This document shows positions 2,806 to 60,435 of a DNA stretch of 64,000 bases, one piece after another (position 1 is the stretch's first letter; each line of letters opens with the position of its first letter). The translations under genes were made by a program, and so were the position numbers. The stretch is taken from the NCBI GenBank assembly GCA_027118455.1, contig JAJAYZ010000091.1:416-64415 (forward strand), given 5' to 3'. The stretch comes from Actinomycetes bacterium (GTDB lineage: Bacteria > Actinomycetota > Actinomycetes > JAHEKZ01). A model generated the notes under the pieces. That model was not told the DNA's origin. It saw only the letters and a list, made by a program, of their open reading frames with translations, and did no database searches.

Positions 2806-3177
2806 GGGGGTGAAAGGTTTCGACTTTGTACGTACCGTCTAGGGGAAGCGGGTCGAGGATGCCAAGGACGATCTCGTTAACCATTCCTTGGAAACCAATA
2901 AGTGCCAATACATCGCGCACTGATCTCACTCTCGCTGCCTAAGCGAGCTTGAAGATCCGTCAGCCCGGAGCTGCTTCCGATCCGGTGTCTGGCGTCGACT
3001 AGGAAGCTCAACCTGATGGCCCGGTCACGGGGCTAGCGGGAACATCAAACAGTGACTGAGCCCGCCGGCAGCTTGCCTGCGTGACTGCCGGGGCTGAGAA
3101 AAGCACAGTGGGCTGCACCCGGAGAAGCCCTGTATGGACGACGAAGGACGCGGGTTCGATTCCCGCCACCTCCACCA
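2806..3177 (+). ncRNA. ssrA: tmRNA (SsrA)
   Basis: 5' end GGGGGTGAAAGGTTTCGACTT and 3' tRNA-like end GGACGCGGGTTCGATTCCCGCCACCTCCACCA match actinobacterial tmRNA. The internal tag ORF ends ...LTLAA-TAA (gccaatacatcgcgcactgatctcactctcgctgcctaa). Length about 372 nt. Confidence 0.9.
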
Positions 3178-30514: not shown

Positions 30515-30609
30515 GGAGGTGTTCCTCATCTGGTGATGGGCGCGGTCTTCAAAGCTGTTGTAGGCGAGTATCTCGCCTAGGCGGGTTCGATTCCCGTCCA
30601 CCTCCGCCA
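30515..30609 (+). tRNA. selC: tRNA-Sec (UCA anticodon)
   Basis: 95 nt. GGAGGTG...CTTCAAAGC (anticodon TCA) ...long variable arm...GGTTCGATTCCCGTCCACCTCCGCCA. It lies between selD and selA as in sel operons. Confidence 0.85.
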
Positions 30610-34811: not shown

Positions 34812-36189
34812 CTGTTGCCTCATGTCAATACCTCCGGCATGGCTAGGTCGTTGCCTCATTTGATTTCCTCGGCCAATCGGCCTGGTTCCAGGCGGTGTTG
34901 ACCGCGGGTTTGTGTCGGGGTGCCTTCTTGGCCTGAGCCAGTACTTCGAGCTCGCCGGTCAGCGCCAGGATGTGCCGTGAGAGTGCCCCGGGTTTGATCT
35001 TCTTGAACGCTGCGTTCATCGTAATGATCGGGCGTCTTCGCATCGCCGGATGAGTCACCGCTCGCTGGTGAGGCGTGGTCGCGGTGTCGTGCTTCTTGGT
35101 CACCTTGGCCCCGTGGCGCTGCTTGAACACCAGCTTCTGTTGCGGCAGGAAATAGTTGGTGAAGAGCGCGTCCAGTTCCCAAATCTCGTTGAGTTTGGCC
35201 AACTCACTGGGGGTGTCGTAGCGGTAGTAGCCGACCAGTTCGCGGACCCTGGCCCAGTTCTTCTGCTTCACGTGCGCGCCGTCGTTGGAGTTGCCTGGCC
35301 GGGAACGGGTGAACGTCACCTTCTGCTCGATGCACCACTTCAGCAACTGGTCGTTGATGAACTCGGTGCCGTTGTCGGAGTCGATCCCCACGATCGGGAA
35401 CGGAAAGACCTCCACCACATGCTGCAACGCTTCGAAGACCCGCTTCTGGGCCTTGTTCCGCACCGATCGGTTCACCGTCCACCCGGTGCAAACATCAGTC
35501 ACAGTAAGGGTAAAACAAAACTCACCACTGGCGTTGCCGCCCTCATGCCCGACCAGGTCAATCTCAACAAAGCCGGGCACCGCATCGTCCCACTCAGCCC
35601 AGGTCCGCACCGGGATCTGCGACTTCAACAGACTTCCCGGTTTGGTGTGGGAACGACCCCGCGGCATCAACTTCGCCCGATGCTCAGCCAGCCGGCGGTC
35701 GATCGTCGCGGCGCTCATCCGACACAGCAACGCGGCCTCGGCATCGGTCACATCAAGCTCACCGTCGCGGCGCAAGATCGGCACCAGCACCGGCAGCATC
35801 GGCGCCAGCCGCTTACCAGCCGGAGCCCGAAGCACCGCCCAACACTTCACCAACGCCGCAATCACCGACGGCCCATACAGCGGCTCCCGTCGCGCACGCG
35901 GCTTGACAATCTTCAGGCGTAACGCCTCCCGCAACGCCACCCGGGCGTAGTCACGGTGCCACCCGGTCAGCTCGACCAACTCATCGAGAATCCGGGTCTT
36001 ACCCGCCCGATCTGCCCGGGCATACCCCCTCGCCTTCGCCTTGCTGACCGCCTGCCGCTGACTCATCGAAAGACCCATCTTCTGGGCGTAGACCCGACAC
36101 GAACCAACCCCCCAACGACACACCGCAAACGGAGGTTTCTAAATGAGGCAACGTATAGGCCCACGCGGAGGTTTTTGATGAGTCAACGC
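34812..36189 (-). mobile_element. Apparently intact insertion sequence (rve/DDE transposase) with nested terminal/subterminal inverted repeats
   Basis: Inner IR: CGTTGCCTCATTT at 34849-34861 and its reverse complement at 36141-36153. Outer IR: GTTGCCTCATGTCAATACCTCC (34814-34835) versus the reverse complement of GGAGGTTTTTGATGAGTCAAC (36169-36189). The IRs flank a single 426-aa transposase ORF. Confidence 0.55.
34843..36123 (-). CDS. DDE (rve integrase-core) transposase, IS481/IS30-like
   Basis: N-terminal HTH region, then FVEIDLVGHEGG...TGW...IVGIDSDNGTEFIN, typical of rve-domain transposases. Alternative starts lie at 36078 and 36066. Confidence 0.6.
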   Translation of the reverse strand: MCRWGVGSCRVYAQKMGLSMSQRQAVSKAKARGYARADRAGKTRILDELVELTGWHRDYARVALREALRLKIVKPRARREPLYGPSVIAALVKCWAVLRAPAGKRLAPMLPVLVPILRRDGELDVTDAEAALLCRMSAATIDRRLAEHRAKLMPRGRSHTKPGSLLKSQIPVRTWAEWDDAVPGFVEIDLVGHEGGNASGEFCFTLTVTDVCTGWTVNRSVRNKAQKRVFEALQHVVEVFPFPIVGIDSDNGTEFINDQLLKWCIEQKVTFTRSRPGNSNDGAHVKQKNWARVRELVGYYRYDTPSELAKLNEIWELDALFTNYFLPQQKLVFKQRHGAKVTKKHDTATTPHQRAVTHPAMRRRPIITMNAAFKKIKPGALSRHILALTGELEVLAQAKKAPRHKPAVNTAWNQADWPRKSNEATT

Positions 36190-46719: not shown

Positions 46720-47840
46720 ACGCGGTGCATTTTGCTGAGCAGGCGACTCTCGGGTGCCTCCTGCTCGACCCCGCTGCCGCAAGGCCGGTGGCGACGGTGT
46801 TACGCGCGGAGGACTTTGCCCATCCCTGGCACCGCGCGGTCTTCACCACCATCCGGGAACGCCACGTTGCTGGCGCCCCACTGGACGCGAAGATGGTGGG
46901 TCCTGCCCTCGTCGAACGACTGGGGCAGCGTAAGGCCGATCTCCCACGTGTCCTCGATCTGCTGCGTGCGGCGCCGATTCACCCCCAAACAGAGCGCTAC
47001 GCAGCGATGGTTCTCGAGGCTTCGCTGCGCCGCCAGGTCGCCTGCCATGGCGTCCTTCTAGAGGCAGCTGCTCTGTCCGCGTCGTTGTCGATGAAGAGTG
47101 GCCCAGTCACACGGGTCGCCGGTCTCGTCGACGCTGCGCTTAGGGACGCCGAACGTCGCTGGCTCATCGCCAGGGGCAGTCACTCGGATGCCGATGCCGC
47201 CGCGCAAACGGACCCATCGACTCGGCTCTTCGATACCGCGTTGGGAGCCGATCGGCTCCTGAGGGCTCATCCGCCGATCGATTCGACCGAGGCAATGCAA
47301 AACGAAGCGCACCTGGTTGCGGCCCTGGTCACACATCCCGCTGACGTCGCGACCACCGCCGCGTGGCTGCGACCAGAGGCGCTCACCGATCCGGCCTGGC
47401 GACCGGTATACGCCGCACTTGTCCAGGTGGCGGAGTCAGGCGAGCCCATCGACGTCGTGACGGTCAACTGGGAGGTGCGTCGCGCCTCCGCGCGGATGGG
47501 TCAAGGGCCGGGTACCCGAGAGCTCCGTGAGGCAGTCGACTCGGCCGCCGCGAGCGATCCCGGATACCTGAGTCGCGCTGTCGCCTCTGACCAGTTGCGG
47601 TCCACGGCTGCGCACGCTGCGGATGCCCTGCGTTCGTGTGCGAGCAACCCCGGCATTGACTTGGTCGACGTTCTGCACACCGGTCATCTGTTGACTAAGG
47701 CGCTGTGTGAGAAGGCGAACGTCCTTCCGGAACGGTCGTCTGGCAGTCCCCCGCAGAGACACCTGGCGGCGGTGCACGACCGTACCCAAACGCGGGACAT
47801 TGAGTCGATGCGTGGGGTCCTCGGGCCGGTGGCCGGATGA
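46716..47840 (+). CDS. DnaB-helicase N-terminal-domain protein (no ATPase domain)
   Basis: AEQATLGCLLLDPAAARPVATVLRAEDFAHPWHRAVFTTI resembles the DnaB N-terminal domain. Confidence 0.5.
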   Translation: MNAVHFAEQATLGCLLLDPAAARPVATVLRAEDFAHPWHRAVFTTIRERHVAGAPLDAKMVGPALVERLGQRKADLPRVLDLLRAAPIHPQTERYAAMVLEASLRRQVACHGVLLEAAALSASLSMKSGPVTRVAGLVDAALRDAERRWLIARGSHSDADAAAQTDPSTRLFDTALGADRLLRAHPPIDSTEAMQNEAHLVAALVTHPADVATTAAWLRPEALTDPAWRPVYAALVQVAESGEPIDVVTVNWEVRRASARMGQGPGTRELREAVDSAAASDPGYLSRAVASDQLRSTAAHAADALRSCASNPGIDLVDVLHTGHLLTKALCEKANVLPERSSGSPPQRHLAAVHDRTQTRDIESMRGVLGPVAG

Positions 47841-49675
47841 CTCCCGCACGCCGGTCTCCAGTTCGACCATCTGGCTCCTACGCGACGGGTTCCGGCATGG
47901 ATTACGCGAACTGGGGCCTCTCCGCACTTCTAGCCTTGTTGGCGTTCGCTTGTGTTCAGTGGGCAGGGGCTGCGCTGGCCGGTGTGGTGACTGGTCGAGG
48001 AGTTCCACGCGGCGGGATGCTGCCCGCGTTGGTGGCGGTCACGGATTTGCAGGATCCCTCGACAGCTTGGCCTGAGCCGGCGCAAGTGCCCGCGTGGATT
48101 CCGTACTGGGGCTGCACCCTGCTGGTGTGGATCGCCGTGGGAGCATTCGTCCTCCTCGGCAAGCACCTGTGGTGCCGCTTTCTGGTTCCGAGTTCGTCCG
48201 CAGTGGACCGCGTTCGGTCACTACCTGGGTTGGCGACACCGAGCGAGGCCGAGACTGCCTCGGGGCGCAAAGCCCTGCAACGTCGCGCAGCTGTCGCACG
48301 ACCGTCGCTGGTCGGGAAAACCGCTCCCACTGACGTCGGCTATCGGCTCGGTCGGGTGCGCGGCAAGGATCTGTGGTGCTCGGTCGAGGACTCGGCGTTG
48401 CTAGTCGGACCACCGCGCATGGGCAAGGGCCTTCACATCGTCATCCCATGGGTGGTCGACGCTCCGGGGTCGGTGGTGGCGACGTCGACGCGACCGGACA
48501 CGCTCGCGGTCGCCTTCCACGCCCGTGCCACACACGGCGAAGTCGCGGTCTTCGACCCACAACGGCTTGCAGGTCTGCCGGGCGGTCTGCGCTGGTCGCC
48601 GGTGCGCGGCTGTGAATCCCCTCAGACCGCTCTCGTCCGGGCGCGAGGACTGGGGTCCGGCGCCGGATTCGGCAAGACGGTGTCGGACTCAGACTTCTGG
48701 GCCGGACAAACCGAGACGGCGTTGCGCTGCCTCCTGCACGCCGCAGCTTTGGACGGTCGGCGAGCGGTCGACTTGTACCGGTGGTCGCTGAACCCCGCAC
48801 TGGCTGAAGACGCGGTCACGATTCTCACTCGTCACGCAGACGCTGCAACCGGCTGGGCGGACGCCCTGGAGGCGGCCGTGCATGCCGATCCGCGGACGCG
48901 CGACAGTGTCTGGCTCGGTGTGCGTCAGTCGCTCGCCGCACTCGCTGACCCCGACGTGCTGGATGCCGTCGATCCTGGCCCGGGTGAAGCCTTCGACCCG
49001 GTGGGCTTCTTGAAGAACTCCGGCACCCTGTTCCTTCTGGCGTCGTCGGTTGCGTCGTCGTCTTGCGCGCCGCTGGTGGCGGCCTTCGTCGAGGACATCA
49101 CCGAGACTGCACGGACCCTGGCCGCCCGCGCCACCGGTGCGCGGCTCGACCCGCCGCTCCTTCTTGCACTGGATGAGATCGCCAACCTGACCCCGCTTCC
49201 GTCCCTTCCGTCGTTGATGGCCGAGGGCGGCGGGTCGGGCATCACCACTCTGGCTGTGTTGCAATCACTCGCCCAGGCACGACACCGGTGGGGCGAGCAC
49301 GCTGCCGACGCGATCTGGGATGCCGCCACAGTCAAGCTCGTCCTCGGCGGACTGGCGAAACTGCGCGACCTCGACGACGTGTCTCGCCTACTGGGCGAGA
49401 TCGACGAACCAACCCAGACCCTCTCTCGCGGTCGAATGGGGGAACGCTCCTCGTCCACGAGCCTGCGCCAGATGCCGGTTATGCCGCCCTCAGTTCTGCG
49501 AACCCTGCCGTTCGGAACCGGTGTGCTGCTCCTGCGACACGCCCGCCCCGTCGTCATCGACCTTCAGGCATGGCCCGACCGACCAGACGCCGACCGACTG
49601 ATCGCGGGACGCACCGCCATCGAGGCCGCAACTGCAGCGAGCCCGCTTCCGAACTCGTTGGCCGAAGTCCAATGA
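47837..49675 (+). CDS. Type IV coupling protein (VirD4/TraD/TraG-like)
   Basis: N-terminal TM helices, P-loop LLVGPPRMGKG and a C-terminal TraM-recognition-like region. Confidence 0.65.
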   Translation: MTPARRSPVRPSGSYATGSGMDYANWGLSALLALLAFACVQWAGAALAGVVTGRGVPRGGMLPALVAVTDLQDPSTAWPEPAQVPAWIPYWGCTLLVWIAVGAFVLLGKHLWCRFLVPSSSAVDRVRSLPGLATPSEAETASGRKALQRRAAVARPSLVGKTAPTDVGYRLGRVRGKDLWCSVEDSALLVGPPRMGKGLHIVIPWVVDAPGSVVATSTRPDTLAVAFHARATHGEVAVFDPQRLAGLPGGLRWSPVRGCESPQTALVRARGLGSGAGFGKTVSDSDFWAGQTETALRCLLHAAALDGRRAVDLYRWSLNPALAEDAVTILTRHADAATGWADALEAAVHADPRTRDSVWLGVRQSLAALADPDVLDAVDPGPGEAFDPVGFLKNSGTLFLLASSVASSSCAPLVAAFVEDITETARTLAARATGARLDPPLLLALDEIANLTPLPSLPSLMAEGGGSGITTLAVLQSLAQARHRWGEHAADAIWDAATVKLVLGGLAKLRDLDDVSRLLGEIDEPTQTLSRGRMGERSSSTSLRQMPVMPPSVLRTLPFGTGVLLLRHARPVVIDLQAWPDRPDADRLIAGRTAIEAATAASPLPNSLAEVQ

Positions 49676-50880: not shown

Positions 50881-51861
50881 GTGGTGGGGGCTGCCTCGGT
50901 CGATCGAGTCGATCGACTCACGCAGTTGCATGAGCAACTCACCACTGCTGTGGATGAGCTCGCCAACAGTGACGCCTGGCGCCGCATGCTGGAGGTCGCC
51001 GCGCGGATGCCGACCTACAGCCCGTCTAACGTCTTGCTCATCGCCGTGCAGCGTCCGGAGGCCACGCGAGTTGCCGGGTTCGGTACCTGGAAGTCGCTCG
51101 GGCGCCACGTCTGCAAAGGCGAGAAAGGCATCGCGATTCTGGCGCCGTGCCTATACCGGGGCCGTGACAACGGGGAAGCCGATCGGGCGGTGTCGCGTGA
51201 GGAGCAGGCGAACGCACACGAGGAGGCGAAGCGTGAGCTGCGAGGGTTCCGGGTGGTGCACGTCTTCGATGTGAACCAGACCGAGGGCGATCCGTTGCCT
51301 GACGTTGCACCGGACCTGCTTATCGGAGCAGCCCCGGACAGGTTGTGGGAGCAACTCGTCCGTCTCGTCGAAGCGGATGGCTTCGTGGTGGAGCGCGGTG
51401 CGTGTGTGTGGGCCAACGGGTACACACGCTTCGACGACTGTGTCGTCCGGGTGCGCGACGACGTGGATCTAGCCCAGGCAGTGAAGACACTGGCGCACGA
51501 ACTCGGTCACATCCGAGCCGACCACGGGACACGTTTCGCCGACACGTACCACCGGTCCGTGGACTGCCGTGGTGTGGCCGAGATTGAGGCCGAATCCATC
51601 GCATACCTCGTGACTGCTGCGGCTGGGCTCGACGCGGGTGGTTACTCCGTGCCGTACGTCGCCGGCTGGTCCGGCGGAGATCCGGATCTGCTTCGCGCCA
51701 CCGCGACCAAGGTGCTAGCTACGGCGAGCAAGATTGACGAGGAGCTCGCCAGCACCGCGCGACCTGGGATCCCAGATGGGTCCACTGGTGTCCGCCGGCA
51801 CCCCATCCCGTTCCGTCAAGTTCCTGGGCGGAGCCCTGTGGGCCGGGCCGCCGGAGGCTGA
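50881..51861 (+). CDS. ArdC-like antirestriction protein (ssDNA-binding N-domain plus HExxH metalloprotease C-domain)
   Basis: YSPSNVLLIAVQRPEATRVAGFGTWKSLGRHVCKGEKGIAI matches the ArdC N-domain. The C-terminal motif is LAHELGHI. Confidence 0.65.
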   Translation: MVGAASVDRVDRLTQLHEQLTTAVDELANSDAWRRMLEVAARMPTYSPSNVLLIAVQRPEATRVAGFGTWKSLGRHVCKGEKGIAILAPCLYRGRDNGEADRAVSREEQANAHEEAKRELRGFRVVHVFDVNQTEGDPLPDVAPDLLIGAAPDRLWEQLVRLVEADGFVVERGACVWANGYTRFDDCVVRVRDDVDLAQAVKTLAHELGHIRADHGTRFADTYHRSVDCRGVAEIEAESIAYLVTAAAGLDAGGYSVPYVAGWSGGDPDLLRATATKVLATASKIDEELASTARPGIPDGSTGVRRHPIPFRQVPGRSPVGRAAGG

Positions 51862-52066
51862 GGGCCGTGCTCCCTCGTCTGCAGATGACCGGAATCGGCT
51901 CCGGTCTAGCGAATCAAGGGGACGCCACCTGGCACGGTCCCGTCATTAGTCTTCGACGTGCGTCTATCCGCCCATTAAGACGCACGTGGGCAGCGCTATT
52001 GAGTCGATCGAGGCTTTCAAGACCGTCGTTCAAACCCACGGATGATGCAAGCTCTAGGCTCCGATC

Positions 52067-52915
52067 GTGGCGATCACGAGTAGCGACTTCTTCACGAGCG
52101 GGTCGGGCGGTGACTGGTTGGAGCCTGTCGAGCCGGAGGAGCTCGACCGCGACAGGTTGACGAGGCTCCTCGAAGCAGCAGATCCTGTCGAGCCCGACAT
52201 CGACGTCACACTCGCCTTGATGGATCTCGTCCGAGACGACCTCACAGCCTCGGGAACCGGAGGGGGTGAGTCGCTAAGCGACCAGGACATGCGCCTCGCG
52301 ACACGGGTCCTGAGCTGCGTCGCGGACCGTGCGGGCTACGAATTCAAACTGCCTTTTCGCGATCACACGAGTTGGCGTGCTTGGTGGAACCGGAACGACG
52401 GATACGGCTCGTGGCAGGCGCGTCGCGATTTGCTTGGCGGTCTATTCGACGAGACCTACGCTCGCTTAATCGCAGCGCAAGAGCAAGCGCTTGACGCCAC
52501 GTTGGCCGAGGCGATCTCTCCCCACCGCACTCTCGGTTGGCCCGACGTGGACGCCGAGATAAACGAGCTCCGCCGTCAGTTCAGCAGGGCCACGACGCCT
52601 CAGGACTGCGCAGCCGTCGGCCTCGTCGCGGTTCGTGTGACCGAAGCCTTGAGCCGGAAGGTCTATGTGCACGCGGTCCACGGCGCCCCTGGAGAGGAAG
52701 AGCCGAAAATCTCCGACACTAAGAAGCGGCTCGGCTCATACGTCGTTGCCAAGTTGCCAGGCAAGGGGAACGAAGAGCTGCGACGCCTCGCCAAGACGAC
52801 GATCGAGGCTGCTCAGGCTATGAAGCATCGGGGAACGCCTACTCGAACCGAGGTCGGGGTAGCCGCCGACGCCGTGATTTTGCTCGCGAACATGCTGCGC
52901 CGCCTCGACGAGTAA
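52067..52915 (+). CDS. Hypothetical alpha-helical protein (282 aa), immediately upstream of a TIR-domain gene
   Basis: No recognised domain. Acidic N-terminus. Confidence 0.4.
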   Translation: MAITSSDFFTSGSGGDWLEPVEPEELDRDRLTRLLEAADPVEPDIDVTLALMDLVRDDLTASGTGGGESLSDQDMRLATRVLSCVADRAGYEFKLPFRDHTSWRAWWNRNDGYGSWQARRDLLGGLFDETYARLIAAQEQALDATLAEAISPHRTLGWPDVDAEINELRRQFSRATTPQDCAAVGLVAVRVTEALSRKVYVHAVHGAPGEEEPKISDTKKRLGSYVVAKLPGKGNEELRRLAKTTIEAAQAMKHRGTPTRTEVGVAADAVILLANMLRRLDE

Positions 52916-53007
52916 CGCGAGCTAAGGAGCCCCAGCGTGGGGAATCGGCGACCAACAACAGAGCTCGGTGGCGTCGTAGCGTCAGACGTCTCGTTTATCA
53001 TCGCCAT

Positions 53008-53718
53008 ATGGCGCAATGCACAGCACCGTATAGAGGTCATCGGACCGCGAGTGGGCTGGCAAATTGCCCTGCGTGCGCTGGTAGGCGGTACGGCCGCTCG
53101 TCTTACTCGTCGTACTCGCACAGCGGCGGGTCATCGAACGGCGGCAGGGGTAGATCGAGTTACGGCAGTTCGTCCGGCGGTAGTGGCGGAGGCTCGCGTC
53201 GGACTAGGACCGGCCGGTCGGTGTCGTACACCCCGACCGAATGGCGCACCGTCGAGCCCTTCACGGAGAAGGCCAGTGAGCAGGCTCAGGCGCACCCCGA
53301 ACGTCGCGACCTCTTTTTGTGCCACGCCTGGGACGACCGAGAAGGTAGCGCGAAAGAGTTGCACGGCCACCTAAAGGCGAATGGCGCGTCGGTGTGGTTC
53401 AGCGAAGAAGACCTTCCCCTTGGTTCGCTCATGATCCGCGAGATTGACAAGGGACTACGGAACTCCCGCGTAGGGATAGTGCTTGTCACGCCAGCGCTGC
53501 TCAAGAGCATCGAGGGCGAGGGCGTGGCGGAAAAGGAACTCGCCGTATTGCTCTCGACCCGTCGCGTCATCCCCGTACTGCACGGAGTCAGCTTCGACGA
53601 CCTGAACAACGTCAGCCCCATGCTGGCTTCGCACGCTGGCCTAGACGCGAAGGAGTCGTCGCTCGGCCTGATTGCGGCGAAGGTTGCCGCCGCTGCCGCC
53701 GCGCTCCCCGCCGCCTAG
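53008..53718 (+). CDS. TIR-domain protein with Gly/Ser/Arg-rich low-complexity N-terminus
   Basis: RDLFLCHAWDDREGSAKELHGHLKANGASVWFSEEDL...IVLVTPALLKSIEGEGVAEKELA matches the bacterial TIR fold (FxSHAxxD ... VWxDE ... LLKS..C..E). An alternative in-frame GTG start lies at about 53222. Confidence 0.6.
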   Translation: MAQCTAPYRGHRTASGLANCPACAGRRYGRSSYSSYSHSGGSSNGGRGRSSYGSSSGGSGGGSRRTRTGRSVSYTPTEWRTVEPFTEKASEQAQAHPERRDLFLCHAWDDREGSAKELHGHLKANGASVWFSEEDLPLGSLMIREIDKGLRNSRVGIVLVTPALLKSIEGEGVAEKELAVLLSTRRVIPVLHGVSFDDLNNVSPMLASHAGLDAKESSLGLIAAKVAAAAAALPAA

Positions 53719-53911
53719 GGAAAGACGCAACAGGTCGATTGCGATATGGACCTGCTTAAGGTGCGTCACTTCGCCACTAGCCGACCTGATGCGGAGATGG
53801 CTCCTAGGGTGTGAGGAAGGCCTCCCTGCGGGTGTGTCGCCCGGACTTCTGGCTCGATCCCTGCTGGCTGCTTTGGTCAGGGAGGATCGAGCCCCGCGGA
53901 CAGAGGTGAGA

Positions 53912-54382
53912 TTAGACGGAAGTGAACAGAGTCCGGTATCTCGAATACTCCGGGTCGTGGTCATCTGGGTGGGTGTGGGCAGTCCAACCCAGCGAGTGCC
54001 AGAACGGGTCTGAGGTCGCGTTCAGAGACATCGCAACGACTGGCTGACCGTAGTGCTGAGCGATCAACTCGACTACTCGCATTCCGTATCGTCGTCCGGA
54101 CTTTCGGAGGTCATCGCGAACCTCGATGAGATCGATTTCTGCCACACCAGCGTGGGGGCAAGTCCACGACGTGTACCCGCGGTAATGGCCGGAACGCGGC
54201 AGCACTTTGGCACGCGCCACCTCTTCACCGTCGTCCACGGCGCGGCAATAGGAAACAGGACTCTTTGCGCTGCCGCGGTGCCACCAAGAGAAGTCGAAGC
54301 GGGGGTCTTGACCAAAGTCGGGAGTCACGAGCTCTCGGCGAGCGGACAGACTCTCAGCGACTATCTCAAGTGCAAGCACCAC
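53912..54382 (-). CDS. GNAT-family N-acetyltransferase
   Basis: Motif A-like RKSGRRYGMRVVELIAQHYG in a 156-aa protein. Confidence 0.5.
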   Translation of the reverse strand: MVLALEIVAESLSARRELVTPDFGQDPRFDFSWWHRGSAKSPVSYCRAVDDGEEVARAKVLPRSGHYRGYTSWTCPHAGVAEIDLIEVRDDLRKSGRRYGMRVVELIAQHYGQPVVAMSLNATSDPFWHSLGWTAHTHPDDHDPEYSRYRTLFTSV

Positions 54383-54461
54383 AGGAGAATGGTCCCATGG
54401 AGCGAACGCCTCTTTGCTAGCGCGTCATCCCGCCGCGACTCGGTCAGACACGTGATTTGGG

Positions 54462-55154
54462 TCAGCCCCCGTGAATAGACTCAAAGTGTTGAGCTGTCGA
54501 TGGTTGCCCCCGAAAGCGATCTCTCGCGTCGATTAGATCTGGCAATTCCTGGTTCGCCATCCGGTTCCACTGGTAGAACGACGGGTGTGGAACGTGGAGT
54601 GGGCTGGGCGTCAGATCGGGGATGGCCGCAGCAACCATGAGCTGCGCGAAGGTGCCTGCGGCCACTACTCGGCCGTCGGAACGAGTAGCGACACCCGAGA
54701 GCCAATTGCGGAGCCCGTCAACGAGAACCTCTGAAATCGCCCGTGTCACAGCTCCTCGCATGGACGAAATTGAGCGCGCCCTCGACCGGCGAACCTTTTC
54801 GATCAGAGTCCACTCGTCTTCTCCGAGGTCGGGGGCCTCGACGTCGACGAAGGCGGCTTCCTGCATGGGAACGTTGCTGACGTTCAATATGGCAATACGA
54901 CCGTCCCCAGCAGCGTGACTCTGCTGGACGAAGCGCCCGAGACTCCGGTCCTTTGGTTGAGCTGGCTGTAGGAAACGAAGGGCACTCCTGCCGGCGGTCC
55001 CAACGACGGGCAGTCCCTTCCTCAGTTCGTCGACATGGGGTGACTCGAAGACGAAAAGGAGTTCCACGGCGCGGTTGGGTGGCACGAGGTCGGGGACATG
55101 CCACCGCGCATAGATCCCGCTGCCGTCCTCGCTCAGATAATTGATGGCAGTCAT
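54462..55154 (-). CDS. Uracil-DNA glycosylase-superfamily protein
   Basis: LLFVFESPHVDELRKGLPVVGTAGRSALRFL follows the UDG family-4/5 motif-A pattern (hydrophobic-FVGEAPG..E...G.PFVG.AG..L). Confidence 0.5.
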   Translation of the reverse strand: MTAINYLSEDGSGIYARWHVPDLVPPNRAVELLFVFESPHVDELRKGLPVVGTAGRSALRFLQPAQPKDRSLGRFVQQSHAAGDGRIAILNVSNVPMQEAAFVDVEAPDLGEDEWTLIEKVRRSRARSISSMRGAVTRAISEVLVDGLRNWLSGVATRSDGRVVAAGTFAQLMVAAAIPDLTPSPLHVPHPSFYQWNRMANQELPDLIDARDRFRGQPSTAQHFESIHGG

Positions 55155-55355
55155 GTCAGATCCGTTTGTAGGGGCACGTTGCGGATCCGATTGTTGCGCG
55201 GCGGCCGCTATCGGGCGAGTCGAGCTCTCTGCGTCTTTCCCGCCGCCTGCCGTCGTGGGTTGAGCGTGGGCCTAGCGTCGGTGTGTTGGGGTGCCTCGCT
55301 GTGTGGGTGGCGAGCACGGCGCGGCCTCACAGTAGATCGTCGCGTGAGGTGCTCC

Positions 55356-56263
55356 ATGTCCACCACATCGCGGCTGTTGCCGTTCCAGCCGATGGCGATG
55401 ACTGCTGCGCAGCTCGCGACCTTCTCGTGCCTTGCCCGGTATGCCGGGCACACCCACGAGCTGTACTGCTACCAGCTGCGTCTCTGGTTCCAGTGGTGTG
55501 AAGGCAACGGGCTGGATCCGTTGGTCGGGATCCAACGCGCTCACGTTGAGCTGTACATTCGCGGTCTGGGCGAGGCGGGGCTCATGGCGTCCTCGACCAA
55601 CACGATGATGCACGGAGTCCGCGGGTACTTCCGGTTCGCCCACATCGACGGCCTGATCCCAGCCGACCCCGCCGTCTACGCGCGGCTTTCGCAGGTGCAC
55701 AGCGACGAGTCGTGGACCCATGGCCTAGACCGGTTTGAGCTGATCTGCTTCCTCCAAGTCGCCCAGACCACCACCGTGCACCACGGCGCCCTGGCCTCCC
55801 TGCTGGGAATCAACGCGCTGCGAGCCTCGGAGGCGGTAGCGGTCCGCATCGAGGACTACGCCGAGACCCTGCGCGCGACCGGGTCCTGCACCTGGTGGGC
55901 AAGGGCGACAAACCCGCCTCCATGCCGTTGACCGTCCCCGTCCTGCGCGTCCTAGAGGCCTGCCGCAGTGAGCGGACCACCGGCCCGTTGGTTCGGCGGC
56001 CCAAATCGGGCGCCGATCGACCACCGCGACGCCTATCGGATGGTCACGGGGTCGCGAACGCCGCATGGGTTCCCCGACACATCAGCCCAATAGCTGCCTC
56101 ATCCGGCGATCACCAGCCCACTCGACGTCGGCGTTCCGCTCCGAGACGCCCAGAACCTCGCCCGTCACGCCGACCATGAACCACCGAGCACTACGACCGT
56201 GCCCGCGACAACCTCGACCGCCAGGGAGCCCACTTCCTCACCGCCTACGTCGCCGGGGTCTAA
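55356..56263 (+). pseudogene. XerC/XerD-like tyrosine recombinase, disrupted by at least three frameshifts
   Basis: The core-binding N-domain is intact. The catalytic domain is spread over three frames: LHLVGKGDKPASMP (box I) in a second frame, RHISP... in another, and TTEHYDRARDNLDRQGAHFLTAYVAGV-TAA (catalytic Tyr) in a third. Confidence 0.7.
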
Positions 56264-56364
56264 CCGACTCGGCGGGTACATCAACTTCGCCCAGATTGAT
56301 GTATCAGCAACGTCCTTGGAACGCGCTCCGTCGACCCGACCTTAAGCCGTACGCGCGACGCATC

Positions 56365-58278
56365 TCAACCGATGCGAACGAGTGGAACGCCACCGCGTGC
56401 AAGCTCGTCGTAGATGTCTTGGATAGGACTCTGCGAACCGCGTTGGTCGCACTGCGTGAAGATCAGTCTTTCGGCAGCGCGTGAGACCCCAACGAAGAAG
56501 GCCATGGTGGAGTCGATGGTCTCTCTCGCATGTGCCCACCATTGGTCGCCGTCGAGCCCGACGAAGAAGACCGTGTGGTACTCCAGCCCCTTGCTACGGT
56601 GGATGGTGAGCAGGGGGACGGCGTCTTCCTCGATGAAGGCACCAGCTACTTGGTCCCATGCGTCCGCGTCCGCGATCACGGCCCCGAGGCGGAGCTTGAA
56701 CGCATCCAGGGTGATGTCTAGGTCCTCAGGTCGGTCGGTGAAGACTCGCTTGTGAGCGAGGTCGTCCAGCTGCACGAACTCAGTCAGCAGGTCCGTCAGA
56801 TCGTCGGTCAGTTCTTTCACGCGTTCAGGGGTCGGTGACGCCACAATGTGATTGTCGAGGAACCTAGCTGCGAACCACGACCGTAGTTGGACGAGGAAAG
56901 CCGCGAGCGAGTCGTCGGCGCGGCTTCCGACCTCGCGGTTGAGTTCTTCTGGGATGAACTGAGCCAGGATGCCTACGACGTCGCGCCATGCTCCGGGTTG
57001 TCCCCCTCGCGACGCACCGAGGCGAATGAGCCCCACGAGCAGCCTTATCAGTTCGTCCTTGAGCAGGTCCTGGAGACGAACCTTTCCGATGAGCGCGTCG
57101 TCGTTGCGTAGCTTGAGCTGTTGCTTGGCAAGGGAGCTCGCAAGAGCCGGCTCCAGGTCAGCGACCTTCTGGCGAGCGATGAGGGCGTATTTGGACGCCG
57201 GACGACCCGATTGCTCGATGTCAGCGGCAATCCACGCCGCGAGGGTGTCGGCCTCGAGCGTGGTGGTTGAGAACGACCAGATCGCTGTCGGGCTCTCCCC
57301 GAGAGTTGCGGGAACCTGTGAGATCTGGCGTTGTGCTTGCGGGTGGAGAAGCTCCGCGAACCGATGTTGTAGGTCGACGAGTTGCTGGGTGGAGCGAAAG
57401 TTCCAGTTCAGTTCGAAGGGGGAGGCACTGAAGTCGTGCTCGAACTGGCTGAATGCGTCGTCGAGCGCGCCGGCCCATCCCATGATGCGCTGTTTGCGGT
57501 CTCCGACCACGGTGACGATGGTTTGAGAGCCACCGAACACCGAGTGGAGGAAGGAGTACTGCGTGTAGGTCGTGTCCTGGAACTCGTCGACGAACACGTA
57601 CGGGTAGGTAGCGAGCAGTGCACGTCTGAGCTGGGGATTTGTCCGGATCAGCAGCTCTGCCAGACGGTTGAGCATGACGAAGTCGACCGTGGGTACCTCG
57701 TGAGCGAGGTACTTCTGCGCCCACCAGCTGAGCACTGCGTATTCAGCAGGAGTGGTTGTAGCACCGAGTTCAGAGGGAAGCTGAGTCGGTCCGACCATGT
57801 CCGAGATGAAGGTGCCGCCCTTGATCGCGTTAAGCGCCGACTGCAACCCTGGGTCGGCGCTGGCAGCGAGGTTGTCTAGGAAGTCGCGCACCTCCCTGAC
57901 GCTTGAGAACCCGACCCTGTAGGGCCTCTTCATTGCCCAGGTCACTGGGAGCAGGTCCTTGAACCGGTCGACGAGGGACTTGGTGAAGGCGTCGAAGGTC
58001 ATCGAGGTGAAACGGTCGGCATGCTCGGGGATTCGCCCCCAGACCCGTCGCCGCAGGTTCGCCGCAGCATCGCGCTTGAAGGAGATTGCCAGGATCTGCT
58101 GGGGTGGCCGGCAGATGCCCGTTTCGAGGAGATAGCTTGCCCTTTGCGCGAGGAACTCTGATTTGCCGGCGCCCGGGCCGGCTGTGACGCTGGAAGTGTT
58201 CGCTCGTAGGGCATCCCACGCCGCCGGCTCCAGATCGTCGATGTCGCGTGGTCGCCACTCGGCTGGGTCAGTCCTCAC
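56365..58278 (-). CDS. UvrD/Rep-family helicase (GajB-like)
   Basis: Motif I SVTAGPGAGKSEFLAQR and UvrD-like helicase motifs. The GTG start overlaps the upstream OLD-family stop (GTGA). The longest ORF start lies at 58374. Confidence 0.7.
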   Translation of the reverse strand: MRTDPAEWRPRDIDDLEPAAWDALRANTSSVTAGPGAGKSEFLAQRASYLLETGICRPPQQILAISFKRDAAANLRRRVWGRIPEHADRFTSMTFDAFTKSLVDRFKDLLPVTWAMKRPYRVGFSSVREVRDFLDNLAASADPGLQSALNAIKGGTFISDMVGPTQLPSELGATTTPAEYAVLSWWAQKYLAHEVPTVDFVMLNRLAELLIRTNPQLRRALLATYPYVFVDEFQDTTYTQYSFLHSVFGGSQTIVTVVGDRKQRIMGWAGALDDAFSQFEHDFSASPFELNWNFRSTQQLVDLQHRFAELLHPQAQRQISQVPATLGESPTAIWSFSTTTLEADTLAAWIAADIEQSGRPASKYALIARQKVADLEPALASSLAKQQLKLRNDDALIGKVRLQDLLKDELIRLLVGLIRLGASRGGQPGAWRDVVGILAQFIPEELNREVGSRADDSLAAFLVQLRSWFAARFLDNHIVASPTPERVKELTDDLTDLLTEFVQLDDLAHKRVFTDRPEDLDITLDAFKLRLGAVIADADAWDQVAGAFIEEDAVPLLTIHRSKGLEYHTVFFVGLDGDQWWAHARETIDSTMAFFVGVSRAAERLIFTQCDQRGSQSPIQDIYDELARGGVPLVRIG

Positions 58279-60298
58279 GCTGGATCGACCGCCTTGGCGA
58301 TGGCGTCGAGCAGCCTTCCCAGCCGCTCTGGCGGCCTGGCTAAGCCAGAAGCACTGACTTGGTTGAGGGCGCACAAGTGAGTGCCGGGCTTCGAGTGGGT
58401 GAGAAAGAGGTACCTGTACCAGCGCAGGTCCTCAAGCTTGTCGTCCGTAGCCCAGATCGGAACATCCGGCCTGACCTTGGGCTGGCCGAGCACGGCATCG
58501 CGAGGATCGCCCTCGCTACTCGGTCCCTTGGCGCCCGGCTCAAGGTTTGTCGTGTAGGCATCCCTGAACGTCATGAGAAGCGCCATGTCGAGGTCGAGTG
58601 GGGTGGAGAAGAAGATGTTCCACTTCTCAAGATGGTTGAGCCAAGCGACGAGTTGGTCCTGGTCGAGGCCGTCGATGTAGTCTTTGGAAGTGAAGCCTTC
58701 GATACCTTCAAACGGGTCGTAGCCATTCGCGGCCAGCTGTTCGCAGACATCGCGGATTCGGCCCTCGCCGCCGCCAGCACGTCCCCAGTCGAGGTCGAGG
58801 AGCGTGGCGTAGGGAATATCGAGTTGAGAGAGAAGGCGCCAGAAGTGGTTGGTGTGCCGTCCGCCGAGCGGCACGACAGCGACGAAGGATTGGTCGATGT
58901 GCATGCCTCGACCGGCCGCCAACTTAGGCAGAACCAGTTCCTCAGACGCTCCCTCGCCGAGCACTACGAACCTGGCAAAGTACAGTTCCGGGTGCGCACG
59001 GACGGCTTCCCGGATGTATTTTCCGGCCTCGGTGGAGTCGTCGGGCAGGACGATCTCTCGAACCTTGGACGTCTTCGTGGACTCGTCGAGACGAAGGTGT
59101 CGGATCTTCTCTGGCTCGATGCGCGCGACGGCGCTGGCTGAGTGACTTGAGATGACAGCCTGGGCTCGGCCGCTCGTGGTTACGTCGAGAAGTTGCTGGA
59201 CGACGCGGGAGAGGAAGTATGGGGCGAGGTTGTTCTCGGGCTCCTCCAGCGCCAGCAGGGTCAGGGACGGGAGGTTTTTATTTGACAGGTCGAACTCGTC
59301 GTCGTGGTCACCGGCGGCGATTGCCGCTTCGATGTCAAGGATTGCGGCCGTCAACGCGATGTAGAGCAACGACTGCTGACCATCACTGAGCTCCTGCGCC
59401 GGGCGGGTTCTTCCTGCAGGGGAAGGCTCGAAGATCAGCTCGGCGCTGGACACCAGCACGCTGACGTCGCGATTGATCGGCTCGAAGGACGGCTTCTGGT
59501 CGGCGACCGCATGATGGAGTTGTTGCCAACGACTGGAGATGGCCTTCGTGACCGCGTCGACAACAGGCTCGTCCTTGAACTTGTCAGTGAGCTCCTCGGC
59601 TGCCTCGCTGACGTGGGTACGGAAGGGCTCTGACCACTGGCTGGCGCGCCAGACCCGACCGCGGAGGAAGGTGCTGACCTGCCGGGCGCCATCACGGGTC
59701 GCAGGGACGTAGACCATCTGGATGCGATTGCGGTCCGAGGCGCGAAGTTCGACCCAGCTCTCTCCATATTCTTCTTCGAACGTATGAACGACCCGCCGAC
59801 TCTCCTCGACCGTGCCAACCACCGGGCCATCCGCTGACCAGACGGCTTCGAGCACGATGCGCAGCTTGAGCTGGCCGTCTTCATCCGCAGACATCTGTGC
59901 GAAGAACTCCGGCACGGCGCCGGGTGGGGCGTCATCTTCTTCCGCAGCGAGCTCAGGGAAGGCGAAGACTGCCTCGATGGTTAGGGCCCGCTCGTCGGGC
60001 TCTTCCTGTTCGGCGTCGGGAACGTGGAAGTCCTCGACCCGCACCTGGCGCTGGTCCGAGACGACGCTGAACAGTCGCAGTAGAGCCTGGCAGACAGCTG
60101 TCTTCCCACTCGCGTTGGCGCCGAGCATCGCAGTGAGCTGCGCATCGAACCGGATCGTCGTCGGCTCCGGCCCGAAGCACTGGAAGTTGGTGACGGTCAG
60201 ACGCTCTAGGAACAACTCGGCCTCCGACCTTCGTGCCCAGTCACCCAGGCCAGTTATGTGAACGATACGAAATCTGACATGACTACGTCGGGTCGACA
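58275..60298 (-). CDS. OLD-family ATP-dependent endonuclease: ABC-type ATPase plus TOPRIM (GajA-like, class 2 OLD)
   Basis: Walker A LGANASGKTAVCQALLRLF. The TOPRIM glutamate motif VVLGEGASEELVLPKLAA and the DxD motif LLDLDWG lie in the C-terminal domain. Confidence 0.7.
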
Positions 60299-60435
60299 TC
60301 CGAAGTCGCAGCTTCGTCTTCGGTTTCGGAGTCAGATCGGTTGCAAGAAGGTTGCCGCCTCGGTCAGGCGCAGCGCCACGCAAAAGTCGCCGAAATTCGT
60401 GAGGTCGAACCTCGGTCCGGTGGCATCCTTGGACC

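What the first reader, a model, noticed from the sequence alone, without database searches (positions are those of the whole stretch)
52067..55154. TIR-domain protein with unknown partner, plus GNAT and UDG-superfamily genes, between the conjugation module and the integrase
53008-53718 encodes a TIR fold (FLCHAWDD...VWFSEEDL...LLKS..E) behind an unusual Gly/Ser/Arg/Tyr-rich low-complexity N-terminus (SYSSYSHSGGSSNGGRGRSSYGSSSGGSGGGS). It is preceded by a 282-aa helical protein of unknown function. It is followed on the opposite strand by a UDG-superfamily protein and a GNAT.

Bacterial TIR proteins are NADase effectors or signal generators in several anti-phage systems (Thoeris and others). 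None of the usual partners (SIR2, SLOG, Macro, STING) is present. The 282-aa protein or the UDG-like protein could therefore be a new sensor or effector partner.
Basis: inference. Interest (0 to 1): 0.7.

Follow-up and report, generated by a model that had tools for sequence, protein, structure and literature searches.

The report
Stand-alone TIR gene in ICE cargo
The TIR gene is real and has an unusual, widely conserved front end, but it and its three neighbours are separate single-gene cargo modules of a conjugative element, most likely independent defence genes, and not a new TIR-plus-partner system.

Summary
All four genes exist as described. 53008-53718 encodes a TIR protein of the PdTIR/TcpB/AbTir type with its catalytic Glu (E177). 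It sits behind an invariant Cys/His knuckle and a 35-45 aa Ser/Gly/Tyr/Arg linker. This whole architecture recurs on plasmids of Bacillus, Acinetobacter, Enterococcus, Rhizobium, Planctomycetes and Actinobacteria.

The 282-aa protein (52067-52915) is an abortive-infection-like protein. Its N-domain is homologous to that of an Arthrobacter Abi_C protein, and its C-domain has a HEPN-like fold without the Rx4-6H motif. The 156-aa protein is a GNAT at family level. The 230-aa protein has a UDG-superfamily fold.

The partner idea fails at family level:
- 0 of 57 loci with a 282 homologue carry the TIR.
- 1 of 84 TIR loci carries the 282 homologue.
- No SIR2, SLOG, Macro or DUF2188 neighbour was found.
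- GNAT and UDG-like homologues never accompany either gene.

The 282+TIR block does recur in two other flanks (95.7% and 84.5% nt), so a lineage-specific pairing is not excluded. My best reading is a SpbK-like, element-borne, single-protein TIR NADase sitting next to unrelated defence genes, with Gabija nearby. Moderate interest.

The parts
52019..53767 (+). Two-gene block (282-aa gene plus TIR gene) shared as one unit with other elements
   Evidence: blastn: L058 (Pedococcus sp. P5_B7) 95.7% over 1752 nt with unrelated flanks. L145 is 84.5% over 52044-53775 with different flanks again.
52067..52915 (+). 282-aa abortive-infection-like protein. N-domain (about aa 3-138) is shared with Abi_C proteins. 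C-domain (about aa 159-281) is a HEPN-like four-helix bundle lacking Rx4-6H.
53008..53718 (+). 236-aa stand-alone TIR protein (knuckle, low-complexity linker, TIR)
   Evidence: Pfam TIR_2 7e-15. PADLOC ThsB model 1.4e-84 over the full length. More than 7985 homologues. PDB profile hits PdTIR, TcpB and AbTIR.
53008..53085 (+). N-terminal Cys/His knuckle, aa 1-26 (MAQCTAP..GHR......CPAC); C4, H11, C20 and C23 are invariant
   Evidence: Invariant in 22 actinobacterial homologues and in Bacillus, Acinetobacter and Kocuria plasmid proteins. Codon-position entropy 15.6/12.2/36.7. Zinc binding is inferred, not shown.
53092..53196 (+). Ser/Gly/Tyr/Arg low-complexity linker, aa 29-63
   Evidence: Length 35-45 aa and composition S33/G27/Y12.5/R11% across 43 homologues with in-frame indels. 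A Ser/Tyr/Asn-rich equivalent is present in other phyla.
53302..53694 (+). TIR domain, aa about 99-229. The putative catalytic Glu E177 is the codon at 53536-53538.
   Evidence: Profile alignment places E177 (AEKEL) on the Glu of PdTIR 'PQKEL' and TcpB 'ARELDG'. E177 is invariant.
53912..54382 (-). 156-aa GNAT-family protein, an independent module
   Evidence: 159 homologues. 17 of 40 hit PF00583, and the family profile's PDB hits are almost all acetyltransferases (YlbP 2pr1 E 0.0015). Absent from all 282, TIR and UDG-like loci.
54462..55154 (-). 230-aa UDG-superfamily protein with a divergent motif A (FESPH) and motif B (VPHPS), an independent module
55374..56264 (+). Tyrosine integrase, apparently disrupted by at least one frameshift
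   Evidence: Phage_int_SAM_1 on the 55098-55931 ORF. tblastn of the intact L143 integrase splits between frames 3 and 2.
50881..51861 (+). ArdC-like protein, the last gene of the conjugation module (context)
   Evidence: Pfam ArdcN 3.2e-11. Upstream are a T4SS coupling protein at 47837-49675 and an SLT hydrolase.
56365..60383 (-). Gabija system (GajB 56365-58374, GajA 58275-60383), a neighbouring defence system (context)
   Evidence: PADLOC GajB 2.9e-183 and GajA 1.4e-223. Pfam UvrD, and AAA_21 plus OLD-TOPRIM.

Best explanation
Window 52-56 kb is the cargo end of an actinobacterial conjugative element. It is a mosaic of independently exchanged single-gene modules: an Abi-like 282-aa protein, a TIR protein, a GNAT and a UDG-like protein. 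A degraded integrase and a Gabija system lie next to them.

The TIR protein belongs to a cross-phylum family carried on plasmids and ICEs. Its members consist of a Cys/His knuckle, a Ser/Gly/Tyr/Arg low-complexity linker and a PdTIR/TcpB/AbTir-type TIR domain with the catalytic Glu.

I infer that it works alone, in the manner of SpbK of ICEBs1. In uninfected cells the TIR domains are too dilute or held apart. An invader-derived trigger bound by, or condensing, the knuckle and linker region clusters the TIR domains. Composite active sites then form and NAD+ is cleaved, giving depletion and possibly a cADPR-type product, which aborts the infection.

The 282-aa protein is inferred to be a separate abortive-infection-type protein with an Abi-family N-domain and a HEPN-like C-domain. 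It is not an obligate partner of the TIR.

What is shown: the domain identities, the conservation, the mobile-element context and the lack of a conserved partner. What is inferred: NADase activity, the trigger, the role of the linker, and any function of the 282-aa protein.
For: **TIR identity and catalytic Glu:**

**Solitary state of the TIR**
- In 84 TIR loci the largest neighbour cluster occurs in 5 loci. The largest clusters are mostly mobile-element genes: relaxase, transposase, serine recombinase, integrase.
- Pfam scans of 77 immediate neighbours and 110 small ORFs show recombinases, AbiEii, zeta toxin and ResIII. They show no SIR2, SLOG, Macro or DUF2188.
- Tightly linked downstream genes on plasmids are unrelated to one another.

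**Architecture and mobile-element context**
- The same architecture occurs on 30 plasmids across phyla.
- In the Kocuria flava plasmid CP013255 the TIR and a 282 homologue lie 49 kb apart.

**Independence of the 282-aa gene**
- 0 of 57 loci have a TIR and there is no recurrent neighbour.
- Eight loci sit inside type I R-M operons. Other neighbours include Fic, Schlafen-AlbA_2, DUF4238, a STAND-like ATPase and integrases.
- It has an Abi-type N-domain and a HEPN-like fold.

**Single-gene exchange boundaries:**

**Precedent:** SpbK is an ICE-borne single-gene TIR NADase activated when a phage portal protein clusters it (PMC11984713, PMC12847820).
Against: - The 282+TIR block recurs in three different flanks, with up to 15% nucleotide divergence. 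The genes are co-directional, 92 bp apart, and no terminator was detected between them. Co-transcription and cooperation in this lineage are therefore possible.
- TIRs about 58-60% identical over the domain are listed by Yirmiya et al. (Table S1, cluster 2507529800) with a putative DUF2188 effector. The family may therefore be signal-generating in some contexts.
- No biochemical data exist for any member. The solved TIR relatives (PdTIR, TcpB/BtpA, AbTir) are not established as defence proteins.
- My neighbour gene calls are heuristic (GC3-based), and many metagenome contigs are short. Only 55 of 84 have at least 1 kb upstream.
Confidence: 0.55

Rival explanations
1. The 282-aa and TIR proteins form a lineage-specific two-gene system. 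Either the Abi/HEPN-like protein is an effector switched on by a TIR-made nucleotide (a new Thoeris-like type), or it is the sensor that recruits the TIR.
For: The pair is a discrete conserved block in three flanking contexts: the window, L058 at 95.7% and L145 at 84.5% nt. The genes share a strand with a 92-bp gap and no predicted terminator. Thoeris TIR clusters are known to swap effectors, with 29 putative types. The TIR matches a PADLOC ThsB model.
Against: Linkage is absent at family level: 0 of 57 and 1 of 84. Close relatives on both sides occur unpaired: the 282 gene at 91% aa in L001, and TIRs at 82-93% aa in L059, L062, L063, L067 and L076. The 282 family has no recognisable nucleotide-sensing domain such as SLOG, Macro or SAVED, and lacks the HEPN Rx4-6H motif.
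Confidence: 0.15
2. The TIR is a signal generator whose effector is encoded elsewhere, for example a small DUF2188-type protein or a chromosomal receptor, so the locus holds only half of a Thoeris-like pathway.
For: Sister TIRs, 58-60% identical, are listed with a putative DUF2188 effector. SpbK also makes N1-cADPR, whose receptor is unknown.
Against: No DUF2188 was found among 110 small ORFs next to 84 TIR loci or next to the window gene. The DUF2188 association is untested experimentally. The TIR moves between hosts as a single gene, which fits poorly with dependence on an effector in trans.
Confidence: 0.12
3. These are element-benefit genes rather than host defence. Placed just after ArdC, the TIR and/or the 282-aa protein would help establishment in recipients, counter host defences, act in competition between mobile elements, or act as an addiction module.
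For: The genes lie directly downstream of the anti-restriction-type ArdC, or of a TrwC relaxase in L058. Both families are strongly associated with plasmids, ICEs, recombinases and toxin-antitoxin genes.
Against: 282 homologues also sit inside chromosomal type I R-M operons. No viral structural relatives were found. No anti-defence role of a catalytically intact TIR turned up in the literature I searched. The neighbours are defence genes: Gabija here and an RT-like gene in L058.
Confidence: 0.1
4. It is a Tcp-type virulence factor that interferes with eukaryotic TLR signalling, as was proposed for TcpB, TcpC and TirS.
For: The nearest solved relatives are TcpB/BtpA, PdTIR and AbTir.
Against: The hosts are environmental Actinobacteria (Nocardioides, Pedococcus, Amycolatopsis, Lentzea) and soil or wastewater metagenomes. 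No secretion signal is evident.
Confidence: 0.02

Closest known systems
SpbK of Bacillus subtilis ICEBs1 (single-gene TIR NADase, abortive infection)
   Same: It is carried by an integrative conjugative element and is a single protein with a non-TIR N-terminal part plus a C-terminal TIR. No operonic effector is required. Its proposed logic is that trigger-driven clustering of TIR domains activates NAD+ cleavage (PMC11984713, PMC12847820).
   Different: I did not test or detect homology of the N-terminal region. Here the N-terminus is a 26-aa Cys/His knuckle plus a disordered S/G/Y/R linker, not a folded domain. The trigger is unknown and the activity is untested.
PdTIR / TcpB(BtpA) / AbTir group of bacterial TIR proteins
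   Same: These are the best sequence matches of the TIR domain (E 1e-19 to 1e-17). The conserved Glu aligns, and the proteins are solitary genes.
   Different: By my recollection (not tested here), those proteins carry coiled-coil or other N-termini, not the knuckle and low-complexity linker. Their native roles are debated.
Thoeris (ThsB TIR plus effector; types I-XI and further putative types)
   Same: The TIR matches a PADLOC ThsB HMM over its full length. Sister TIRs appear in the Thoeris candidate table with DUF2188.
   Different: There is no adjacent known effector and no conserved operonic partner in 84 loci. Yirmiya et al. explicitly excluded stand-alone TIRs from Thoeris.
Abi_C (PF14355) and HEPN-type abortive-infection proteins
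   Same: The 282-aa N-domain is homologous to that of an Abi_C protein. The C-domain fold is closest to HEPN domains. Embedding in type I R-M operons, seen here in 8 loci, is by my recollection typical of Abi/HEPN genes.
   Different: There is no Pfam Abi_C hit and no Rx4-6H motif. K253-H254...R260 occupies the junction of helices 3 and 4 instead. RNase activity is therefore doubtful.
Condensation-activated TIR proteins of plants, and SARM1
   Same: Their activity depends on local concentration or phase transition (PMC10972746). The S/G/Y/R linker here has the composition of prion-like, condensate-forming regions.
   Different: The resemblance is compositional only and nothing was tested. No bacterial example turned up in the literature I searched.

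Membership tests
TIR domain (Pfam TIR_2) | Profile match above the curated threshold | tested here: met
   PF13676 56 bits against a cut-off of 28, E 7e-15.
Catalytically competent TIR NADase | Conserved catalytic glutamate | tested here: met
   E177 is invariant and aligns with the Glu of PdTIR 'KEL' and TcpB 'REL'. Identifying that position as catalytic rests on published TIR enzymology (for example AbTir E208, from memory).
Catalytically competent TIR NADase | NAD+ cleavage activity | not testable with these tools
   Needs an enzyme assay.
Thoeris | ThsB-type TIR protein | tested here: met
   PADLOC PDLC00424, 1.4e-84, residues 1-228 of 236.
Thoeris | Adjacent effector gene (SIR2-SLOG, TM-Macro, SLOG, caspase-like, DUF2270, DUF6650, SLATT, CMP hydrolase, HIT and others) | tested here: not met
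   There are no such domains in the eight neighbouring proteins. None appear among 77 plus 110 neighbours of 84 homologous loci.
Thoeris | TIR and partner conserved as an operon across homologues | tested here: not met
   The 282 homologue is present in 1 of 84 TIR loci, and the TIR in 0 of 57 loci with a 282 homologue. The pair is seen only in the window, L058 and L145.
HEPN superfamily (282-aa C-domain) | Four-helix up-down bundle of HEPN topology | tested here: inconclusive
HEPN superfamily (282-aa C-domain) | Rx4-6H catalytic motif | tested here: not met
   The 28-sequence alignment has no conserved Rx4-6H. K253 and H254 are invariant and R260 is in at least 90%.
Abi_C (PF14355) | Profile match to the Abi_C domain | tested here: not met
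   No Pfam hit even at E 10. Only the N-domain is shared with an Abi_C protein.
GNAT acetyltransferase (156-aa protein) | Profile match to a GNAT family | tested here: inconclusive
   Its own sequence gives no hit. 17 of 40 homologues hit PF00583, and the family profile hits PDB GNATs (YlbP E 0.0015).
UDG superfamily (230-aa protein) | UDG alpha/beta fold with motif A and motif B | tested here: met
SpbK-like single-gene ICE TIR defence | Element-borne TIR protein that acts without an operonic partner | tested here: inconclusive
   The context and solitary state are met. Function and trigger cannot be tested here, and sequence relatedness to SpbK was not tested.

The most novel reading that the evidence does not exclude
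The knuckle-linker-TIR family is a pan-bacterial, plasmid- and ICE-borne single-protein immune sensor. Its prion-like Ser/Gly/Tyr/Arg linker, anchored by a zinc knuckle, would drive trigger-induced condensation of TIR domains. That would be a bacterial counterpart of condensation-activated plant TIRs and SARM1. In the Nocardioides/Pedococcus lineage it may additionally have recruited an Abi/HEPN-like protein as a new effector or sensor partner.
Probability: 0.15. Interest if true: 0.7.

Novelty: new member of a known kind. Interest (0 to 1): 0.4.

Why it matters
Stand-alone TIR proteins are routinely discarded in surveys of TIR immunity, for example by Yirmiya et al. 2025. This family is nonetheless abundant, with more than 7985 hits. 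It is exchanged across phyla on plasmids and ICEs and keeps an odd, strongly conserved N-terminal knuckle and low-complexity linker.

If it works alone, it offers a compact model for how a TIR NADase senses an invader without a folded sensor domain. The 282-aa family has more than 577 members, no annotation, and often sits inside type I R-M operons. It is a candidate new abortive-infection family with a non-canonical HEPN-like domain.

For this particular finding, the practical message is that adjacency in a cargo islet is not evidence of partnership.

Tried and rejected
- **Sequence searches for the 282-aa protein.** Single-sequence and profile searches against Pfam, NCBIfam, PADLOC and PDB gave nothing.
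- **Fold searches.** The afdb50 library was unavailable. The BFVD viral library gave no significant match.
- **A hidden small partner.** A regex for a DUF2188-like motif and a Pfam scan of 110 small ORFs found none. Tight downstream genes on plasmids are unrelated to each other and absent from the window.
- **Transcription signals.** The promoter and terminator scan of 51.7-55.4 kb was uninformative: 0 promoters, and 1 terminator-like site inside the 282-aa ORF, below the number expected by chance.
- **Element borders.** The search for att-like direct repeats around the element returned only short two- or three-copy matches of the kind expected by chance, so the borders remain undefined.
- **Literature.** Searches for this TIR architecture (pCER270, zinc, low-complexity) found no description.
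- **Rejected readings.** I rejected GNAT or UDG-like as TIR partners, because their homologues never co-occur with the TIR or the 282-aa gene. I also rejected a virulence Tcp role, because the hosts are environmental.
Full report
**1. Observation**

The six-frame ORF list shows four genes at the stated coordinates:
- 52067-52915, + strand, 282 aa.
- 53008-53718, + strand, 236 aa.
- 53912-54382, - strand, 156 aa.
- 54462-55154, - strand, 230 aa.

The DNA is 62-67% G+C. Nearly identical sequence comes from environmental assemblies, and the closest named relatives are Nocardioides and Pedococcus.

Upstream lie a DnaB-N-domain protein, a T4SS coupling protein (47837-49675), an SLT hydrolase and an ArdC-N protein (50881-51861). 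Downstream lie an integrase remnant and a Gabija pair, with GajB at 2.9e-183 and GajA at 1.4e-223.

**2. The TIR protein**

Pfam TIR_2 is hit above threshold. A PADLOC ThsB model matches residues 1-228 at 1.4e-84. A profile of 22 homologues finds the solved TIRs PdTIR (1e-19), TcpB/BtpA and AbTIR. It places the invariant E177 (AEKEL) on the Glu of their KEL/REL motif. By published TIR enzymology that residue is the catalytic glutamate.

The family is large, with more than 7985 hits, and is 62-94% identical across actinobacterial genera.

The N-terminus is not junk:
- C4, H11, C20 and C23 (MAQCTAP..GHR......CPAC) are invariant.
- Variation in the first 26 codons is concentrated at third positions, with entropy 15.6/12.2/36.7.
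- The linker that follows varies by in-frame indels between 35 and 45 aa. It keeps a composition of S 33%, G 27%, Y 12.5% and R 11%.
- The same knuckle, linker and TIR architecture is found at 48-60% identity on Bacillus cereus pCER270, an Acinetobacter variabilis plasmid and a Kocuria plasmid.
- tblastn matches that cover at least 80% of the protein occur on 30 plasmids in all, also in Enterococcus, Rhizobium, Agrobacterium, Planctomycetes and Rothia.
- Some gene callers start the protein at residue 72, giving 165 aa. The conservation argues for the long form.

**3. The 282-aa protein**

There is no hit in Pfam, NCBIfam, PADLOC or PDB sequences, with a single sequence or with a profile. It has more than 577 homologues, all 'hypothetical'.

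An Arthrobacter sp. U41 plasmid ORF (L151:3863-4789, 308 aa) provides an independent link. Its first 143 residues align to residues 3-138 of the 282-aa family with hhalign probability 99.7% and E 7e-26. Its C-terminus is Pfam Abi_C at 1.2e-23. PGAP annotates only that C-terminal part, as 'abortive infection family protein'.

The 282-aa protein therefore has an Abi-family N-domain joined to a different, HEPN-like C-domain. I infer an abortive-infection-type role. Nuclease activity is doubtful.

**4. GNAT and UDG-like**

The 156-aa protein has 159 homologues. Seventeen of 40 hit GNAT PF00583, and the family profile's PDB hits are almost all acetyltransferases, the only significant one being YlbP 2pr1 (E 0.0015).

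**5. Test of partnership**

From the side of the 282-aa gene:
- A scan of one genome per species returned 57 loci with a 282 homologue.
- tblastn found no TIR, GNAT, UDG-like or ArdC homologue within 6 kb in any of them.
- Clustering of neighbours found no recurrent partner.
- The only repeated context, in 8 loci, is insertion in type I R-M operons (HsdR, HsdS, HsdM), often behind a Fic protein.
- Other neighbours are Schlafen-AlbA_2, DUF4238, a STAND-like ATPase, a NOV_C/sacsin-like protein and integrases.

From the side of the TIR gene:
- I examined 84 loci: 80 metagenomic plus Pedococcus, Amycolatopsis and Lentzea genomes.
- Only L058 has a 282 homologue.
- The largest neighbour cluster occurs in 5 loci, and the largest clusters are mostly mobile-element genes.
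- Pfam scans of 77 immediate neighbours and 110 small ORFs gave recombinases, AbiEii, zeta toxin, ResIII and integrases. They gave no SIR2, SLOG, Macro or DUF2188.
- On plasmids, tightly linked downstream genes of 86, 106, 138 and 300 aa are unrelated to one another.
- A Kocuria flava plasmid carries both families 49 kb apart.

DNA comparisons show that each gene is its own unit of exchange:
- L001 shares only window 52039-52932.
- L059-L061 share only about 52996-53718.
- L142 shares only 54422-55246.

**6. The counter-evidence**

The two genes do recur together as a block, 52019-53767. In Pedococcus sp. P5_B7 the block is 95.7% identical and lies between a TrwC relaxase and an RT-like gene. 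In a Logan contig it is 84.5% identical and lies between a DUF222 gene and IS110. The pair has therefore stayed linked through about 15% divergence and at least two relocations.

Against this, the 282-aa gene at 91% aa identity (L001) and TIRs at 82-93% (L059, L062, L063, L067, L076) occur unpaired. I give a lineage-specific functional pairing 0.15.

**7. Relation to what is known**

Yirmiya et al. (bioRxiv 10.64898/2025.12.03.692087) define 29 putative Thoeris types and explicitly drop stand-alone TIRs. Their Table S1 lists TIRs 58-60% identical to this one, in cluster 2507529800, with a putative and untested DUF2188 effector. I found no DUF2188 here.

The closest precedent for how it works is SpbK. 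SpbK is a single TIR gene on ICEBs1 whose NADase is switched on when the SPbeta portal protein clusters its TIR domains (PMC11984713; PMC12847820). Activation of plant TIRs and SARM1 by condensation (PMC10972746) makes the S/G/Y/R linker a plausible clustering device, but this rests on composition only.

**8. Verdict**

My best explanation, at confidence 0.55, is a cargo islet of independent single-gene modules. The TIR would act alone as a trigger-clustered NADase, and the 282-aa protein would be a separate Abi-like gene.

Novelty: a new member of a known kind, namely an element-borne stand-alone TIR. Its conserved N-terminal architecture is undescribed in the literature I could search, and it sits next to an unannotated Abi-like family. 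Interest 0.4.

Noticed in passing
window 56365-60383 (- strand): A complete Gabija system lies immediately beyond the integrase remnant: GajB 669 aa (PADLOC 2.9e-183) and GajA 702 aa (1.4e-223; AAA_21 plus OLD-TOPRIM). The predicted ORFs overlap by about 100 nt, so the GajB start is probably later than the ORF start.
   Followed up: partly
window 55374-56264 (+ strand): The tyrosine integrase appears broken. An intact homologue (L143, 301 aa) aligns partly in frame 3 and partly in frame 2, and the ORF list shows three overlapping fragments. This is either a pseudogene or an assembly error. The identical Logan contig L146 ends at window 55646, before the apparent frameshift, so it cannot decide between the two.
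   Followed up: partly
L151:3863-4789 (Arthrobacter sp. U41 plasmid NZ_CP015733.1): RefSeq annotates only the C-terminal 167 aa as 'abortive infection family protein'. The open frame is 308 aa, and its N-terminal 143 aa are homologous to the 282-aa family, so the annotated start is probably wrong.
   Followed up: yes
L159:2501-4111 and L140:5001-6614: Another local two-gene block: the same TIR family followed within 25 bp by a 300-aa Cys/His-rich protein. It recurs in a Rothia terrae plasmid and in a metagenome contig (86% aa). This is a second example of lineage-restricted pairing of this TIR.
   Followed up: partly
L142:1177-2482: In another contig the UDG-like gene (89% aa identity by tblastn) is followed by a pEK499_p136 (HEPN-family) gene instead of the GNAT. 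In Nocardioides loci (L143, L144) it sits near an AAA_15/AAA_21 ATPase and an integrase 75% identical in DNA to the window's. The UDG-like family itself looks associated with defence islands.
   Followed up: partly
window 2806-3177 and 30515-30609: A tmRNA gene, and a tRNA-Sec directly before selA/selB (30.5-33.6 kb). G+C falls to 58-61% at 34-42 kb, where an rve-family transposase lies (34843-36123). No att-like direct repeats were found, so the element's borders are undefined.
   Followed up: partly
L058:8799-10589 (Pedococcus sp. P5_B7): The gene convergent with the TIR in the Pedococcus element is a 596-aa protein with a weak reverse-transcriptase match (RVT_1, 2e-05, below the cut-off). 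It may be a defence-associated RT.
   Followed up: no
8 of the L001-L057 loci, e.g. L033, L035, L052: Eight homologues of the 282-aa gene, mostly from Acidimicrobiia-type MAGs, are embedded in type I R-M loci with HsdR, HsdS and HsdM. In some loci (L018, and the L022/L023/L029 group) the gene directly upstream is a 420-440 aa protein, which is a Fic/DOC protein in L018.
   Followed up: partly
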